This document shows, piece after piece, positions 14,887-58,791 of a stretch of 64,000 nt of DNA (positions are counted from its first letter, which is position 1; each line of letters starts with the position of its first letter). This DNA is from an uncultured Actinomycetota bacterium (GTDB taxonomy: Bacteria > Actinomycetota > Actinomycetes > Actinomycetales > Microbacteriaceae). Under the pieces are notes generated by a model. The model was given only the letters and a program-made list of their open reading frames with translations. It ran no database searches and was not told where the DNA came from. A program made the position numbers and the translations under genes. The stretch covers positions 28,505-92,504 of the forward strand of contig CAWHND010000011.1 in the NCBI GenBank assembly GCA_963830655.1. Reading direction: 5' to 3'.

Positions 14887-15037
14887 GCTCGGCCGCCTCC
14901 CGTACCAGGCCTGGCCACCTATACGACTAGCTCGGCCACCCTTCCTACCGTCGGTCACCTTTGCCTCCGACTCGGCCACCCTTCCTACCGTCGGCCAGGT
15001 TTGACACCTGGCCCTCGGTAGGAGACGTGGCCGAGCA
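14887..15037. repeat. Solo copy of hairpin repeat family A
   Basis: About 20-bp subunits ctcggccaccctt repeated, closed by inverted gtggccgagca. Confidence 0.85.
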
Positions 15038-15086
15038 GGTACGGCGATCACGAGCACACGGCCAGCGCATCAGCTGGCGAGCGGGA

Positions 15087-18449: not shown

Positions 18450-18581
18450 TGCACCGATCCGGACAAATTGCACGGATCCGGAGAAATTGCACGGATCCGG
18501 ACCGGATCGCCGATTGCCCCGAATCAGCCGCATGAATCGGCCCACCGATCCGGATCCGCAACAATTCTCCGGATCCGTGCA
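18450..18581. repeat. Hairpin element built of 19-bp subunits
   Basis: tgcacggatccggagaaat three times, then inverted attctccggatccgtgca. Confidence 0.8.
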
Positions 18582-21499: not shown

Positions 21500-23122
21500 T
21501 CAGGCCGCGGCGCCGCCGCCGACCTCCTGCTCGATGCGCGGGAACAGCGGCTCGAGCGGCGGTGACCTGACGTGCCGACGCGGCAGCACGCTCCAGCCGC
21601 CCGCCTCGCGGATCGGCTGGTCGGCGAGCGCACCGAGCGCCTGCCTCGGCGCCGAGCGCGGTCCACAGCTTCGCGGTCGCGGTCGGCATCACCGGCGAGA
21701 GCAGCACCGCGAGGGCGCGCAGTCCCTCGGCCGCCGTGTAGAGCACGGTGCCGAGGCGCTCGCGCTGGCGCGTCGTCCTTGGCCAGCGCCCACGGCTCGT
21801 GCTCGGTGATGTAGCCGTTCAGCTCGTCGACGATCGTCCAGATCGCGGCGATCGCCTCGTCGATGCGCGAAGCGCTCGATCGCGGCGTCGGCGTCGCGGC
21901 CGCCGCTCGGCGACGGTCTGCTGGATCGCGAGATCCGCCTCGGTGTACTCCGCCGGCTGCGGGCACGACGCCGTCGAAGTAGCGGCTCGATCATCGCGAT
22001 CGATGCGCGAGGCGAGGTTGCCGAAGCCGTTGGCGAGCTCGGCCTGGTAGCGGGCGGAGAGGTCCTCCCAGCGAGAACGAGCCGTCCTGGCCGAAGGCGA
22101 TCGCCGACAGGAAGTAGTAGCGGAACGCGTCGGATCCGAAGACGTCGGTGATCTCGGTCGGCGCGATGCCGGTCAGCTTCGACTTCGACATCTTCTCGCC
22201 GCCGACGAGCAGCCAGCCGTGCGCGAAGACGCTGCTTGCGGCACCTCGACGCCCGGCGGCCATCAGCATCGCCGGCCAGATGACGGCGTGGAAGCGGAGG
22301 ATGTCCTTGCCGACGACGTGGTACGCCGGCCAGCGGCGGGCGAACTCCTCCTCGTCGCGGCCGTAGCCGACGGCGGTGGCGTAGTTCAGCAGCGCGTCGA
22401 CCCAGACGTAGATGACGTGCGACTCGTCCCACGGGCACCTGGATGCCCCAGTCGAAGGTCGAGCGCGAGATCGAGAGGTCCTTCGAGGCCGCTGCTTGAC
22501 GAACGAGACGACCTCGTTGCGGGCCGACTCTCGGGCTGGACGAAGTCGGGGCGCTCCTCGTAGAGCGCGAGCAGGCGGTCCTGGAACTCGCTCAGCTTGA
22601 AGAAGTAGTTCTTCTCCTGCAGCAGCTCGAGCGGCTTGCGAGTGGATCGCGCAGACCTTCAGGCCCTCGAACGGACCGGTGCCGTCGACGATCTCGGACT
22701 CGGCTGCTTGAACTCCTCGCAGCCGACGCAGTAGAGCGCCTCGTACTCGCCCGCGTAGATGTAGCCGCGTGTCGTAGCAGCGTCTGCACGAACGTCTGCA
22801 CGCGCTCCTCGTGGCGCTCCTGCGTCGTGCGGATGAAGTCGTCGTTGGCGACGTCGAGCGTCTCGAGCAGCGGGAACCACGACCTCGCTGACGAGCCGGT
22901 CGACCCACTCCTGCGGGGTCATCGCCGTTCGCGGCCGCGGCGCGCAGCATCTTCTGGCCGTGCTCGTCGGTGCCGGTCAGCATCCAGGTGTCGTCGCCCG
23001 CCTGGCGGTGCCAGCGCGCCAGCGCGTCGACGGCCACCTCGGTGTAGCCGTGCCCGATGTGCGGCACGTCGCTCGGGTAGTAGATCGGCGTCGTGATGTA
23101 GAAGGAGCGCGCCGGAAACCAT
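21500..23122 (-). CDS. metG: Methionyl-tRNA synthetase (heavily frameshifted)
   Basis: FYITTPIYY, HIGH, GTDEHG, GKDILRFH, KMSKS. Confidence 0.95.
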
Positions 23123-23198
23123 GCCGACCATCCTAATTCCGCCGGAGCACCCGGGAATCCCGCATTACCCCGGCCGCCCGGCACACACGGCCGACCGG

Positions 23199-23303
23199 CT
23201 CGGCCACCTTTCCGCCGGCTCGGCCACCCTTTGCTCCCGACGGCCACCTTTCGGGACGTTCGGCCACCTTTCGAAGGGTGGCCGAACGTCCCGAAAGGTG
23301 GCC
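23199..23303. repeat. Left hairpin, repeat family A
   Basis: 20-bp periodic ggccaccttt subunits; near-perfect palindrome at 23242-23303. Confidence 0.9.
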
Positions 23304-23419
23304 AAGCGATTTTCTGGATCGCAACGCCAGCATGCGTCCACAGGTCCAGGTCCGAACCAACTCTGCACAGATCGCTCGGGAAGCCGTTCTCCCCGCGAGC
23401 CATTCGCGACGATCTCCCG

Positions 23420-24370
23420 ATGGATATCGCGCTCGACCGATTGCTCGAAGCCAACAGCGGCCTCCTGCTGTCGAAGGACCTCATGGCCATGGGAGCTCCC
23501 AAAGCCCTCATCGCCGATCTCGTTCGATCTGGAGCACTCGTCCGGGTGAGACGAGGCGCGTTTGCTTCTGGAGCGGCATGGACGGCAGCGACTCCCGAAG
23601 CAAGGCATCGGATGCTTGTCCGAGCCACTGACTGTCTTCATCCCTCTGACCTGGTCTTCTCCCACTTCGCAGCAGCCGCAGTGCATCGACTGCCGCTTAT
23701 CGGACCGTGGCCGTCGCGCGTACATGTTCTCGACTCGACGGCCAGAGGCGGGAGCTCCATGCCCTCGCTCTTCGTACATCGAACGACCGAGAGTCGCGAG
23801 AACGTCCTCGTCGATGGATTGAGGGTCACCAGCCTTGCTCGCACGCTTGTCGACATCGGCTGCGCGGCGCCGTTCCTTCAGGCTGTCGCCATGATCGATG
23901 TGGCCATGAGACGAGGCGTCACGGCGGAGTCGCTGCTCGAGGAACTGGCCTATGTCCAGCCAGGCCGTGGAGGCAGACGAGCGGCACGTGCGATCAGCTT
24001 CGGCGACGGCCGCAGCGAGAGCGTAGGCGAATCGTTGAGCCGGGTGCGGATGTGGGAGTTGGGCTTCGTGGTGCCGGAGCTGCAGGTGGAGTTCACCGCT
24101 GTCCACGGCCCCCGCTCTTTCGTCGACTTCTTCTGGCCGCGAGGTCGGATCGTCGGCGAGTTCGACGGACGCGACAAGTACCGCAATCCGCTGATCACCG
24201 ACGGACGATCGACGGGAGACATCGTCCTCGCCGAGAAGGATCGAGAGGATCGCATCCGGCCACAGGTGCAGAGATTCATCCGTTGGGGTTGGAACGCCGC
24301 GTGGGATGGCCCTCGCTTCGGGAACTACCTTCGGTCGCACTCCGTGCCCATGCGCTCGGCCACCTTTTAG
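23420..24370 (+). CDS. AbiEi-like N-terminal domain plus PD-(D/E)XK / DUF559-like nuclease domain protein
   Basis: LVRVRRGAF, FSHFAAAAVH, VTSLARTLVD, SESVGESLSR, VDFFW, GEFDG. Confidence 0.8.
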   Translation: MDIALDRLLEANSGLLLSKDLMAMGAPKALIADLVRSGALVRVRRGAFASGAAWTAATPEARHRMLVRATDCLHPSDLVFSHFAAAAVHRLPLIGPWPSRVHVLDSTARGGSSMPSLFVHRTTESRENVLVDGLRVTSLARTLVDIGCAAPFLQAVAMIDVAMRRGVTAESLLEELAYVQPGRGGRRAARAISFGDGRSESVGESLSRVRMWELGFVVPELQVEFTAVHGPRSFVDFFWPRGRIVGEFDGRDKYRNPLITDGRSTGDIVLAEKDREDRIRPQVQRFIRWGWNAAWDGPRFGNYLRSHSVPMRSATF

Positions 24371-24444
24371 GACGTTTGGCAACCCTTCGAAAGGTGGCCA
24401 AACGTCCCTAAAGGTGGCCAAACGTCCCTAAAGGTGGCCGAGCA
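24355..24444. repeat. Right hairpin, repeat family A (contains the gene's TAG)
   Basis: ctcggccaccttttaggacgtttggc ... aaggtggcc three times at 20-bp period. Confidence 0.9.
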
Positions 24445-24463
24445 GGGCCGAGCAGGGCGCGGG

Positions 24464-25279
24464 TCAGCGGGCGCGGAGGGCGGCTTCGTAGAGGTCGCGG
24501 CGGGAGAGGCCGGTCGATGCGGCGACCTCGGTCGCGGCGTCCTTCACCCGGGCACCTGCCGACATGAGGGCGAGCACCTGGGCGATCCCGTCGTCCAGCG
24601 AGACGACCACCGGGGCAGCGCCCTCGACGACGACGCAGATCTCGCCGCGCGCGCCATCGGCGAAGCGCTCGGCGAGCTCTGCCGCAGTGCCCCGGACGAC
24701 CTCCTCGTAGAGCTTGGTGAGCTCCCGGCAGACGACCACCCGCCGGGTCGCGCCGAAGGTCGCCGCCAGATCCGCGAGGAAGTCGCCGATCCGCTGCGGC
24801 GACTCGAAGAACACCAGCGTGCGCGGCTCGGCGGCCAGCCCGCCGAGGAAGGAGCGACGCTCCCCCGGCTTGCGGGGCGGGAAGCCCTCGAAGGCGAAGC
24901 GGTCCGTCGGGAGCCCGGATACGGCGAGCGCCATCAGCACGGCGGATGGGCCGGGCAGCGCGCTGACCCGCACGCCAGCCTCGACGCATGCAGCGACCAG
25001 GCGATAGCCCGGATCGGACACGGTCGGCATCCCGGCATCGCTGACGACCAGCACGTCGGAAGCGGCCGCGAGCGGCACGAGCTCCGCTATCCGATCCCGC
25101 TCGTTGTGGTCGTTGAGCGAGATCATCCGGGGGCGGTTCTCGACGGCGAGGCCCTGCAGCAGACGATGCACCACTCGGGTGTCCTCCGCCGCGACTACCG
25201 TCGCGGACGACAGCGCTTCGACGAGCCTCCGGGTCGCGTCGCCGAGATTGCCGATGGGCGTTGCGGCGAGCACGAGCAT
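24464..25279 (-). CDS. rsmI: 16S rRNA C1402 2'-O-methyltransferase
   Basis: ATPIGNLGD, AEDTR, SDAGMPTVSDPG, RELTKLYEE. Confidence 0.95.
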   Translation of the reverse strand: MLVLAATPIGNLGDATRRLVEALSSATVVAAEDTRVVHRLLQGLAVENRPRMISLNDHNERDRIAELVPLAAASDVLVVSDAGMPTVSDPGYRLVAACVEAGVRVSALPGPSAVLMALAVSGLPTDRFAFEGFPPRKPGERRSFLGGLAAEPRTLVFFESPQRIGDFLADLAATFGATRRVVVCRELTKLYEEVVRGTAAELAERFADGARGEICVVVEGAAPVVVSLDDGIAQVLALMSAGARVKDAATEVAASTGLSRRDLYEAALRAR

Positions 25280-25369
25280 GCGGTCATCCTCCCATCCGTC
25301 GGCGGCAGCTCTCGATCGAGCATCGGACCGCCGCGGCCACACCATCCATAGCGCAGCTGTGCGGCCCCG

Positions 25370-43073: not shown

Positions 43074-43109
43074 CCCAGCGCGCGCCGACCGCACTCGACC
43101 GCTTGGACC

Positions 43110-43200
43110 TGCTCGGCCACCTTTCGAACCCGCTCGGCCACCTTTCCTACCGTGGGCCAGGTTTACAACCCGTGCCGTCGCTAGGAAAGGTGGCCGAGCA
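43110..43200. repeat. Solo copy of hairpin repeat family A
   Basis: gctcggccacctttc twice, closed by ggaaaggtggccgagca. Confidence 0.88.
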
Positions 43201-43220
43201 TCCCCCGGGGACTGGGAACC

Positions 43221-57620: not shown

Positions 57621-57717
57621 AGTGCAAGAGTATGAGGAGGCGAACGGGAACGCCGGGAGGCAGGCGCGAGTTTCGCGATGTCGAAGGAACGCTCGGCCCG
57701 AACAGCCGGAACGCCTC

Positions 57718-57779
57718 CGCGAGTTGACATTTGTGGTGGGTGCAGCGGCCCTAGAACCCACCACTACTGCCAACTCACG
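57718..57779. repeat. Hairpin of repeat family B (contains the gene's TAG)
   Basis: cgcgagttgacatttgtggtgggt ... acccaccactactgccaactcacg. Confidence 0.9.
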
Positions 57780-58660
57780 TCGCCCAGGGCCTCCCTGACG
57801 CGTGCGATCAGCTTCCCTGAACGCGCCAGCAGGTGCTTGTCGACGCGGATGACGCGCCAGCCCTCCGCCATGATGGCATCCAGTCTGTCGACGTCGATGG
57901 CGAACTGTCGGTCATCGGTGCGGTGCTGCTCCCCGTCGTACTCGACGACCACGCGGGCAGCCCGGTACACGAGGTCGCCGTGGAAGACCCCCGTCCGAGT
58001 CTGAATGACCCCATTCACCTCAGGCTCGGCAAGACCCGCACGCACCAGGAGCAGACGAAGGACCGTTTCCTGGGCGGAATCGGTATCTGGACGAAGCTCG
58101 GATAGGGCGCTTCGAAGGCGAGATGCGCCGCGTTGACCCGCCACCCCGTCGACCGCCCGGGTGAGCCGATTCAGAGTCGCTCGCGGCGACTTGCGGGAAA
58201 GCAGACCGTCGCCCATCACGATGAGGTCTGTGATGGACAGCGTGGCACCGAGAGCGATCCACGTGTCGGTGGGTGCACTCACCCGCATCGATCCGCTGGT
58301 CACGACTGTCGGCACGGTGTCGACGCGATGCCCAACGATCCCCTCAGCACGAGGCGCTCGGCGTGGCTTCACCGACGTGACATGCAGAACGTCTTCCCGG
58401 AACCCTCGCGGCAGGCGCATCCGGAAGAGGGCTGCGGCCGTCGTGTGGCTGAAGAACTGATCCCCGCGCAACAGGGGCAGATACGCGCGAGCTCGCTCCA
58501 GCGTGGACTTCGGCTCAGCCGTGACTCGGACACCTCGATGAGGTGCCGCCAGATCTTTAGCGCGCAGACGGGACCGCGATGCTCCCAGTTCCGCTGCCGC
58601 ACCCACCGAGAATGCTGGACCCATGCCCTCGGGAAGATCGGATTTCTGCGACACGCGCAC
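57764..58660 (-). CDS. AbiEi-like plus DUF559 (Vsr-like) nuclease domain protein
   Basis: FSHTTAAAL, DSAQETVLR, GDLVY, VVEYDGEQH, GWRVIRV. Confidence 0.85.
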   Translation of the reverse strand: MRVSQKSDLPEGMGPAFSVGAAAELGASRSRLRAKDLAAPHRGVRVTAEPKSTLERARAYLPLLRGDQFFSHTTAAALFRMRLPRGFREDVLHVTSVKPRRAPRAEGIVGHRVDTVPTVVTSGSMRVSAPTDTWIALGATLSITDLIVMGDGLLSRKSPRATLNRLTRAVDGVAGQRGASRLRSALSELRPDTDSAQETVLRLLLVRAGLAEPEVNGVIQTRTGVFHGDLVYRAARVVVEYDGEQHRTDDRQFAIDVDRLDAIMAEGWRVIRVDKHLLARSGKLIARVREALGDVSWQ

Positions 58661-58730
58661 ATCGTGGGCGAGCCGACCATCTCGTGCGGGTTACCCACAG
58701 CCCATGTGACTTACTCACAAGCTCGGCGTT

Positions 58731-58791
58731 CGTGAGTTGACAGTTGTGGTGGGTGTGGACGTTCGCACACCCACCACGACTGTCAACTCAC
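58731..58791. repeat. Hairpin of repeat family B
   Basis: gtgagttgacagttgtggtgggtgtg ... cacacccaccacgactgtcaactcac. Confidence 0.9.

What the first reader, a model, noticed from the sequence alone, without database searches (positions are those of the whole stretch)
23199..24444. Candidate undescribed system: hairpin-bracketed AbiEi/DUF559-like nuclease cassette whose hairpins also occur gene-less elsewhere (REP/RAYT-like logic)
Seen: a 316-aa gene sits on the opposite strand between rsmI and metG. It is bracketed on both sides by long palindromes built from a 20-bp subunit (ggccacctt...aaggtggcc). Its TAG (24368-24370) lies inside the right hairpin. The same subunit forms solo hairpins at 14887-15037 and 43110-43200. 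Established: rsmI-metG-tatD-rsmA is normally a contiguous actinobacterial block, and RAYT transposases are flanked by their cognate REPs, which spread as non-autonomous REPINs. Inference: this protein (HTH-like N-terminus plus SES..E / D / E.DG nuclease motifs), usually labelled a toxin-antitoxin or hypothetical protein, may recognise and mobilise or maintain its own hairpin family. No AbiEii toxin partner, transposase or integrase is adjacent.
Basis: partly seen in the sequence, partly recalled or inferred. Interest (0 to 1): 0.88.

Follow-up and report, generated by a model that had tools for sequence, protein, structure and literature searches.

The report
Nuclease gene framed by its palindromes
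A gene for a DNA-binding nuclease lies between two copies of a hairpin-forming repeat that is also scattered through the genome, and the same layout recurs across its gene family, which suggests an undescribed actinobacterial counterpart of the REP/RAYT repeat-plus-enzyme partnership built on an unrelated enzyme.

Summary
A 316-aa gene (23420-24370, +) lies between metG and rsmI. It is framed by two hairpin arrays built from a 20-nt subunit (core GGCCACCYTT), and its TAG lies in the right array. About 23 such arrays occur in this 2.4-Mb assembly.

The protein is a complete AbiEi-like module (Z 12.1) fused to a Vsr/DUF559-like nuclease domain (Z 9.2). It is neither a RAYT nor part of an AbiE toxin-antitoxin pair.

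The framing is a family trait. Left and right flanks match in 5 of 7 paralogues here, against 12 of 1573 other genes, and at least five of those 12 are DUF559 relatives. In a second sample the figures were 15 of 32 homologues against 0 of 213 controls. Each protein lineage has its own palindrome family. The geometry is fixed: the left repeat ends about 111 nt before the start codon and the right repeat begins at the stop codon.

Five palindrome families tested across 11 genus genomes were clearly present only where the cognate gene lineage was (one gave 1-3 weak matches elsewhere). Between sister species the cassette is swapped as a block (dS 1.6 against 0.22 in rsmI), with the breaks at the palindromes.

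Binding, cutting and mobilisation are untested. One scattered palindrome family has no detectable cognate gene. This scan has reported the same module on more than 100 other genomes, and I found no paper describing it.

The parts
23196..23308 (.). Left hairpin array. Four forward and two reverse 20-nt subunits (core GGCCACCYTT). The inner part, 23242-23303, is a near-perfect palindrome.
   Evidence: DNA fold -45.5 kcal/mol, z -7.9
23336..23343 (+). GTCCACAG motif 84 nt upstream of the start codon. It resembles a DnaA box and may be a promoter or regulatory element.
   Evidence: [TG]TCCACA is found on the sense strand at -57/-58 or -84/-86 in 17 of 51 family loci, against about 1 expected from my own base-composition estimate
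23420..24370 (+). Gene for a 316-aa protein. Residues 1-196 are AbiEi-like (winged helix plus the AbiEi C-domain). Residues 199-310 form a Vsr/DUF559-like PD-(D/E)XK nuclease domain.
   Evidence: dN/dS about 0.2
24353..24446 (.). Right hairpin array. One forward and three reverse subunits. The stop codon at 24368-24370 lies inside the first subunit.
   Evidence: fold -33.9 kcal/mol, z -6.7. The same junction is seen in three related genomes or contigs
14905..15040 (.). Solo copy of the same repeat family, with partly degenerate subunits. It sits at the orthologous site in the sister genome.
   Evidence: (L114)
43108..43202 (.). Solo copy of the same repeat family: two forward subunits plus a hairpin.
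21991..23122 (-). metG, the left border of the slot. This assembly has one extra base at 23106 that shifts the reading frame.
   Evidence: a soil contig lacks that base
24464..25345 (-). rsmI, the right border of the slot. It converges on the nuclease gene.
   Evidence: 98.5% aa identity to the sister genome

Best explanation
This is one copy of a widespread actinobacterial module. The module is a single gene for an AbiEi-type DNA-binding protein fused to a Vsr-like nuclease, framed by two copies of a palindrome that is specific to that protein lineage.

Shown:
- The framing is specific to the gene superfamily.
- Its geometry is fixed.
- Palindrome type tracks protein lineage.
- Scattered solo copies of five tested families were clearly present only in genomes with the cognate gene lineage.
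- The whole block between the palindromes is exchanged horizontally at fixed chromosomal slots.

Inferred:
- The protein recognises its framing palindromes. The upstream one probably acts as an operator, as AbiEi does at its own promoter.
- The nuclease domain nicks or cuts the extruded hairpin.
- The repair that follows keeps the left and right copies alike, occasionally seeds or deletes solo copies in other intergenic sites, and promotes replacement of the cassette.

This is REP/RAYT-like logic carried out by an unrelated enzyme.
For: Framing:
- Flanks match in 10 of 17 homologue loci.
- In this genome, 5 of 7 paralogues score at least 40 bits against 12 of 1573 other genes. Four of the 12 hit Pfam DUF559 and a fifth is a sub-threshold DUF559 relative.
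- In an independent sample, 15 of 32 homologues match against 0 of 213 controls.

Geometry: the left repeat ends a median 111 nt before the start codon and the right repeat begins a median 0 nt from the stop codon, across 33 loci with unrelated repeat sequences.

Specificity: repeat families are shared by 3 of 3 pairs at 65% protein identity or more, 2 of 13 at 50-65%, 1 of 76 at 40-50% and 0 of 233 below 40%.

Distribution:
- GGCCACC arrays are found only in G000 and its sister G001 among 401 family genomes and 11 genus genomes.
- Three of four further families are confined to genomes with the cognate gene lineage; the G009 family also gives 1-3 weak matches (81-84%) in G005 and G007.

Prediction: a third hairpin family in the window, known only from solo copies, frames a DUF559 gene in the sister genome.

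Block exchange:
- dS is 1.61 for the gene against 0.22 for rsmI.
- Identity falls from 90-96% to 45-75% exactly between the palindromes at 3 of 5 syntenic pairs, and rises to 98-100% at one.
- The inner hairpin type is the same on the left and right within each genome but differs between genomes.

Protein:
- The AF2 model has pLDDT 92.6.
- AbiEi 6y8q scores Z 12.1 over residues 1-196. Vsr 1cw0 and I-Bth0305I 3r3p score Z 9.2, and 3hrl Z 8.9, over residues 199-310.
- D236, E247, D249 and K253 are invariant.
- dN/dS is 0.2.
Against: - No binding or cleavage data exist.
- Solo copies are mostly static: 5 of 6 compared are at orthologous sites in the sister species.
- Co-occurrence is confounded by shared ancestry. 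G000 and G001 are sisters, so the GGCCACC case counts as one event.
- The winged-helix part is the most diverged region (33-53% identity) among four alleles that all keep the same subunit. This argues against a simple winged-helix-to-subunit code.
- One scattered palindrome family has no detectable cognate gene in G000 or in the 98%-complete G001.
- Three paralogues have only their two framing copies and no solo copies.
- G005 and G006 carry gene homologues but no matching hairpins.
- An earlier scan note (e1-2329229) reports a pre-set co-occurrence test on other DNA that failed.
Confidence: 0.45

Rival explanations
1. Regulatory frame only. The upstream palindrome is the autoregulatory operator of an AbiEi-type repressor and the downstream one is a terminator or insulator. 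The nuclease acts on something else, such as foreign DNA or repair substrates. Solo copies are ordinary REP-like terminators that share sequence with the frame through gene conversion.
For: AbiEi is a DNA-binding negative autoregulator in the type IV AbiE systems (PMC3985639, abstract seen). The spacing of the left repeat before the start codon is fixed and there is a conserved TCCACAG motif. The right repeat sits exactly at the stop codon, and here it lies between convergent genes. Seven of 8 solo copies examined lie behind at least one gene's 3' end. Solo copies are mostly static.
Against: This does not explain why the operator and the terminator are the same sequence, why each lineage has a private family, or why scattered copies were clearly present only in genomes with the cognate gene. 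The left repeat here lies in a divergent promoter region, not at a 3' end.
Confidence: 0.25
2. Homing or site-specific cassette. The gene is a selfish element that targets palindromes already present, by cutting them and being copied in or by Campbell-type recombination. The solo copies would then be its targets or excision scars, not its products.
For: The nuclease domain matches a homing endonuclease catalytic domain (3r3p, Z 9.2; PMC3239194). Cassettes are replaced at fixed slots with breaks at the palindromes. The layout left ++++-- / right +--- would collapse to a solo ++++--- by recombination between the inner copies. Intergenic slots hold either a solo palindrome or a cassette.
Against: Empty sites carry unrelated palindromes rather than one copy of the cassette's own repeat. 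This holds for the rsmI-metG slot in five genus genomes and for G000 C9:53976-54060 opposite the G001 cassette. Cassette-free genomes lack clear copies of the supposed target family. There is one gene copy per palindrome family.
Confidence: 0.2
3. Coincidence at an insertion hotspot. A horizontally acquired gene landed in a variable slot and unrelated REP-like repeats then settled on both sides.
For: The rsmI-metG slot is variable in the genus. It is empty in 5 genomes and holds other genes in 4. GC content of the gene is lower than that of the flanks.
Against: Matching flanks occur in about half of the family against under 1% of other genes, and the other genes found in the same slot have no hairpins. 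The same junction between gene end and repeat occurs in four genomes or contigs.
Confidence: 0.03

Closest known systems
REP/REPIN-RAYT systems ('REPtrons') of Proteobacteria (PMC3116915, PMC3337134)
   Same: A single-copy gene is framed by palindromic repeats. The same repeats are scattered in intergenic DNA. Each gene lineage has its own repeat class.
   Different: The enzyme here is an AbiEi module plus a PD-(D/E)XK Vsr-like nuclease, not an HUH/Y1 transposase. Copy numbers are low, from 0 to about 43 per genome. The repeat in this case is an array of 20-nt subunits. The cassette is exchanged horizontally at fixed slots, whereas REPIN-RAYT systems are described as mostly vertically inherited (bioRxiv 10.1101/2022.05.22.493013, abstract).
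AbiEi antitoxin / Rv2827c (type IV AbiE toxin-antitoxin; PDB 6y8q, 1zel; PMC3985639)
   Same: Residues 1-196 have the whole AbiEi fold (Z 12.1 and 9.3), and the N-terminus hits Pfam AbiEi_4.
   Different: There is no AbiEii toxin gene; the neighbours are metG and rsmI. A nuclease domain is fused at the C-terminus.
Vsr endonuclease, DUF559 proteins and the I-Bth0305I homing endonuclease family (PDB 1cw0, 3hrl, 3r3p; PMC3239194)
   Same: Residues 199-310 have the same nuclease fold (Z 8.9-9.2, rmsd 2.6-2.9 A). Acidic residues and a lysine are invariant where the catalytic motif would lie.
   Different: Pfam DUF559 is not hit in P0001 or in 34 relatives. The gene is not inside an intron or intein. 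The motif reads E-x-D-G-x-x-K, not EDxHD.

Membership tests
RAYT (REP-associated tyrosine transposase) | HUH/Y1 transposase domain (Pfam Y1_Tnp) | tested here: not met
   The Pfam scan finds only AbiEi_4. The fold is AbiEi plus Vsr-like.
REP/REPIN-like repeat family | Short palindromic repeats in intergenic DNA, present in many copies, that also frame one cognate gene | tested here: met
   There are about 23 arrays in 2.4 Mb. All 8 solo copies examined in the sister genome are intergenic. The family frames the gene on both sides. Copy number is far below the hundreds typical of REPINs.
AbiE type IV toxin-antitoxin system | Two-gene operon of abiEi with an abiEii nucleotidyltransferase toxin | tested here: not met
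   The neighbours are metG and rsmI, both on the opposite strand. No second gene lies between the palindromes.
AbiEi fold | N-terminal winged helix plus the AbiEi C-terminal domain | tested here: met
   Pfam AbiEi_4 scores E 2.7e-7 at residues 5-49. 6y8q_A scores Z 12.1 over residues 1-196 and 1zel_B scores Z 9.3. Foldseek gives E 6.9e-7.
DUF559 (PF04480) | Match to the Pfam model above its cut-off | tested here: not met
   There is no hit at E up to 0.1 in P0001 or in 34 relatives. A distant paralogue (C7:142003) and other palindrome-framed genes of this genome do hit PF04480, so the families are related.
Vsr-like PD-(D/E)XK nuclease fold | Structural match of a whole domain to Vsr or DUF559 structures, with conserved acidic and basic residues | tested here: met
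   1cw0_A scores Z 9.2 (105 residues aligned, rmsd 2.9), 3r3p_B Z 9.2 and 3hrl_A Z 8.9, all over residues 199-310. D236, E247, D249 and K253 are invariant in 35 sequences. Catalysis itself was not tested.
Homing endonuclease (EDxHD / I-Bth0305I family) | Cuts the gene-less allele at its own insertion site | not testable with these tools
   There is fold similarity only. Empty alleles carry unrelated palindromes.

The most novel reading that the evidence does not exclude
The AbiEi-Vsr nuclease drives a new class of hairpin-directed mobile DNA that uses no transposase or integrase. It cuts extruded palindromes of its own type. Recombinational repair then copies palindromes into new intergenic sites and swaps whole cassettes between genomes. 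On this reading, much of the species-specific intergenic palindrome content of Actinobacteria is the product of these genes.
Probability: 0.3. Interest if true: 0.9.

Novelty: new variant of a known kind. Interest (0 to 1): 0.78.

Why it matters
These proteins are annotated by the thousand as 'AbiEi antitoxin domain-containing' or hypothetical proteins (one search lists 2644 relatives among the 8000 candidates scored). No AbiEii toxin partner is adjacent at the loci examined here, and no function is known. Intergenic palindromes of high-GC Gram-positive bacteria have no known origin. A specific gene-repeat partnership would explain both. It would add a second, mechanistically unrelated example of the REP/RAYT principle. 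It would also give a testable handle, since Naasia lichenicola YIM 131853 is a named strain with a deposited genome, on how palindromes arise, stay alike and shape terminators and recombination breakpoints.

Tried and rejected
- Pfam and NCBIfam gave no DUF559 or any other C-terminal family for P0001.
- Sequence search of the PDB gave only weak AbiEi hits at the N-terminus.
- Sequencing runs: no RNA holder is listed. Three soil metagenome runs from one study hold only short contig pieces of the stretch, and no joint spans the cassette, so nothing can be said about excision or expression.
- Literature searches for AbiEi with DUF559, AbiEi/Vsr/palindrome, REPIN/RAYT with Actinobacteria, and REP with Microbacteriaceae found no description of this module.
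- My GC3-based gene caller covers only about 75% of G000, because the assembly carries frameshifts. Gene context of solo copies was therefore taken from the sister genome. The control counts in G000 rest on these imperfect gene calls.
- The genome-contig scan with the two-subunit pattern also hit unrelated genomes, including Prevotella and Acidobacteriota. I treated these as other repeat families or chance and did not follow them.
- The idea that the cassette is inserted into a solo copy of its own repeat was not supported at either empty site examined.
- The idea that new solo copies carry the inner hairpin type of the current cassette could not be decided. Both types occur in both genomes.
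- The metG dN/dS figure is unusable because of the G000 frameshifts.
- Complex prediction was not used, because it cannot take DNA as the partner.

Full report
**The observation.** The window carries a 316-aa open reading frame at 23420-24370 on the + strand. It lies between metG (21991-23122) and rsmI (24464-25345), both on the - strand. The neighbours were identified by Pfam in the related contig L140.

The gene is framed by two repeat arrays, at 23196-23308 and 24353-24446. Both are built from a 20-nt subunit whose core is GGCCACCYTT. The left array reads ++++-- and the right +---. The two share 87% identity over 68 nt as direct copies and 82% over 94 nt as inverted arms. Both fold into long hairpins as single strands (-45.5 and -33.9 kcal/mol, z -7.9 and -6.7).

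The TAG stop lies in the first subunit of the right array, so the last residues are encoded by the repeat. The core 10-mer occurs 11 times in the window against 0.04 expected. The solo copies at about 14905-15040 and 43108-43202 are real hairpins.

In the whole assembly (G000: 2.42 Mb, 15 contigs, 55% 'complete') there are about 23 multi-subunit arrays. The subunit consensus is CGnTCGGCCACCYTTCG and the period is 19-21 nt. The assembly carries frameshifts. One example is an extra base at 23106 in metG, which a soil contig lacks.

**The protein.** Pfam finds only AbiEi_4 at residues 5-49. An AlphaFold model built on a 35-sequence alignment has a mean pLDDT of 92.6.
- Residues 1-196 match the complete AbiEi antitoxin (6y8q, Z 12.1) and Rv2827c (1zel, Z 9.3).
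- Residues 199-310 match Vsr (1cw0, Z 9.2), the catalytic domain of the homing endonuclease I-Bth0305I (3r3p, Z 9.2) and the DUF559 structure 3hrl (Z 8.9).
- D236, E247, D249 and K253 are invariant in the alignment.
- Pfam DUF559 is not hit in any of the 35 members. A distant paralogue and other genes of this genome do hit it.
- No AbiEii toxin, transposase or integrase is adjacent.

The family is very large in Microbacteriaceae and beyond. Its members are annotated as AbiEi-domain or hypothetical proteins.

**Framing is a property of the gene family.** G000 has about seven paralogues at 30-40% identity. I compared the 400 nt to the left and right of each gene.
- Among 17 homologue loci from the genus and family, 10 have 40-67 nt matches at 89% identity or more. 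Each match is a different palindrome.
- In G000, 5 of 7 paralogues score at least 40 bits (6 of 7 at least 37), against 12 of 1573 other genes.
- Of the eight strongest 'controls', four hit Pfam DUF559 and a fifth is a sub-threshold DUF559 relative. In this genome, matching flanks are therefore almost diagnostic of the AbiEi/Vsr/DUF559 superfamily.
- In an independent sample of 32 homologue loci, about 15 kb each, taken from 22 genomes of several families in the order, 15 score at least 40 bits. The figures for comparison are 0 of 213 control genes and 1 of 46 direct neighbours.

The geometry is constant although the repeat sequences are unrelated. The left repeat ends a median 111 nt before the start codon and the right repeat begins a median 0 nt from the stop codon (33 loci). 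A motif [TG]TCCACA(G), resembling a DnaA box, lies on the sense strand at -57/-58 or -84/-86 in 17 of 51 loci. I estimate about one such hit by chance from base composition.

**Repeat type follows protein lineage.** Left repeats match in 3 of 3 pairs with at least 65% protein identity, in 2 of 13 pairs at 50-65%, in 1 of 76 at 40-50% and in 0 of 233 below 40%.

Within G000, three paralogues have families with solo copies:
- the GGCCACC family, with 11 loci by BLAST and about 23 arrays by motif;
- the C13 paralogue's family, with 14 loci;
- the C7 paralogue's family, with 5 loci.

Three other paralogues have only their two framing copies. No family frames a second gene.

**Distribution across genomes.** The two-subunit pattern is found in only 2 of 401 Microbacteriaceae genomes: G000 (37 hits) and G001 (45 hits). 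Reversed controls gave none. G001 is Naasia lichenicola YIM 131853 and is the sister species of G000, at 87-94% nt identity against 72-80% for the rest of the genus.

G001 carries the orthologue in the same slot with the same framing. So do two environmental contigs, L140 and L142.

| Palindrome family (source) | Genomes with copies | Genomes with a gene homologue but no hairpin |
|---|---|---|
| GGCCACC (G000 window cassette) | G000 about 23 arrays, G001 45 pattern hits | none |
| G000 C13 cassette | G000 14 loci, G001 about 6, G007 about 15, G008 3, G004 2; all carry a gene homologue | G005, G006 |
| G007 cassette | G007 about 30 loci, G004 3 | G005, G006 |
| G009 cassette | G009 about 22 loci; 1-3 weak matches (81-84%) in G005 and G007 | G002, G003 and G010 have only 64-66% nt similarity to the gene |
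| G003 cassette | G003 about 43 loci, G002 about 13 | G010 |

For the C13 family, G002, G003 and G010 have neither gene nor hairpin. Because relatives share both traits by descent, these are few independent events.

**Two predictive tests.**
In G000 its five loci lie next to no superfamily gene. In G001, two copies frame a DUF559 gene at C4:324420-324698. The prediction is met.
- A solo palindrome at G000 C9:53976-54060 belongs to a family with 9 loci in G000 and about 19 in G001. None lies next to any of the 16 superfamily genes I could detect in G001. The prediction is not met, so this is an orphan family or has an undetected partner.

**Natural history of the slot and of the cassette.**
- In the genus, the rsmI-metG spacer is 64-145 bp in five genomes, and at least three of these (G004, G005, G007) hold an unrelated species-specific palindrome. 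In G007 that palindrome belongs to the family that frames another paralogue in the same genome.
- The spacer holds an oxidoreductase-like gene in three genomes and a methyltransferase-like gene in one. These genes have no flanking hairpins.
- Between the sister species, rsmI is 98.5% identical with dS 0.22. The nuclease gene is 60% identical, with dS 1.61 and dN/dS 0.22.
- The four known alleles of this clade are all about 60-65% identical to each other. The winged-helix part is the most diverged, at 33-53%. All four end in SATF, which is encoded by the repeat.
- Identity profiles fall from 90-96% to 45-75% exactly between the palindromes at three of five syntenic pairs. At the guaB-guaB3 slot the cassette is 98-100% identical (dS 0.03) within flanks of 90-95%.
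- The inner hairpin differs between genomes. It has a subunit palindrome in G000, a longer stem in G001 and a third centre in L140. In each genome it is the same on the left and on the right.
- One DUF559 cassette present in G001 is absent from G000, where an unrelated 64-nt palindrome fills the space between the same two convergent stop codons.
- Of six GGCCACC solo copies compared, five are at orthologous sites in both species and one is present or absent.
- All eight solo copies examined in G001 are intergenic: four between convergent genes, three between tandem genes and one between divergent genes.

**Interpretation.** The association between gene and framing palindromes is far beyond chance and is general. 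Four observations support reading the solo copies as derivatives or co-travellers of the cassette's own palindromes: private repeat families, left/right homogeneity, the absence of clear copies from cassette-free genomes, and one fulfilled prediction. This is REP/RAYT-like logic with an unrelated enzyme.

The block exchange shows that the cassette, together with its inner palindromes, moves horizontally into fixed slots.

What is not shown is any binding, cutting or mobilisation. The static solo copies, the orphan family, and the divergent winged helix on a constant subunit all limit confidence in the mechanism. Two narrower readings remain open: the palindromes may be only an operator plus a terminator, or the cassette may home into existing palindromes. 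Plain coincidence is excluded by the controls.

**Prior notes and literature.** This scan has reported the same module on other DNA: 109 findings in at least 104 genomes. It has also noted the second cassette and the third repeat family in this window. In this genus the test mostly passed, but one orphan family was found. I found no paper that describes the module. The nearest in print are REPIN/RAYT (PMC3116915, PMC3337134), AbiE (PMC3985639) and I-Bth0305I (PMC3239194).

Noticed in passing
window 57713-58791: A second cassette in the same window. A DUF559 gene (ORF 57764-58660, - strand, Pfam PF04480) is framed by private palindromes at 57713-57779 and 58726-58791 that are unrelated to GGCCACC. 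Its stop codon again lies inside the hairpin.
   Followed up: partly
window 18450-18581; L184 (G001:C4:323300-325200): A third repeat family with the same grammar (19-nt subunits GGATCCGGA...TTGCAC plus an inverted arm). It has 5 loci in G000, none next to a nuclease gene. In the sister genome two copies frame a DUF559 gene.
   Followed up: yes
G000 C9:53976-54060 (L196): A 64-nt near-perfect palindrome fills the site where the sister genome carries a DUF559 cassette. Its family has 9 loci in G000 and about 19 in G001, and I found no cognate framed gene. It is an orphan palindrome family.
   Followed up: partly
window 23106: There is one extra base near codon 6 of metG compared with G001 and a soil contig. 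Many ORFs in G000 look frameshifted, which probably explains the 55% completeness figure for a 15-contig assembly.
   Followed up: partly
L020-L023 (rsmI-metG slot in G002, G003, G010, G009): The same slot holds an unrelated gene in four genus genomes. Three carry a quinone-oxidoreductase-like gene and one a methyltransferase-like gene. None has flanking hairpins, so the slot is a hotspot for single-gene insertions.
   Followed up: partly
family loci, about -58 and -85 nt from the start codons (window 23336-23343): A conserved sense-strand motif [TG]TCCACA(G), resembling a DnaA box, lies at two fixed distances upstream of family genes (17 of 51 loci).
   Followed up: partly
G000 C15:70596-71234 (L175): A fragment of an FAD-linked oxidase C-terminal domain lies between 312-nt inverted repeats that are 99.7% identical. 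It is unrelated to the nuclease family.
   Followed up: no
L033, L044, L056, L105 and others: Tandem GGCCACCYTT units also recur in several Prevotella, Acidobacteriota and Verrucomicrobiae assemblies. These may be other repeat families.
   Followed up: no
G001 C3:583685-584590 and C4:91220-92125: Two contigs of the N. lichenicola assembly give matches with identical scores for a paralogue and for nearby repeats. This suggests a duplicated or doubly assembled region.
   Followed up: no
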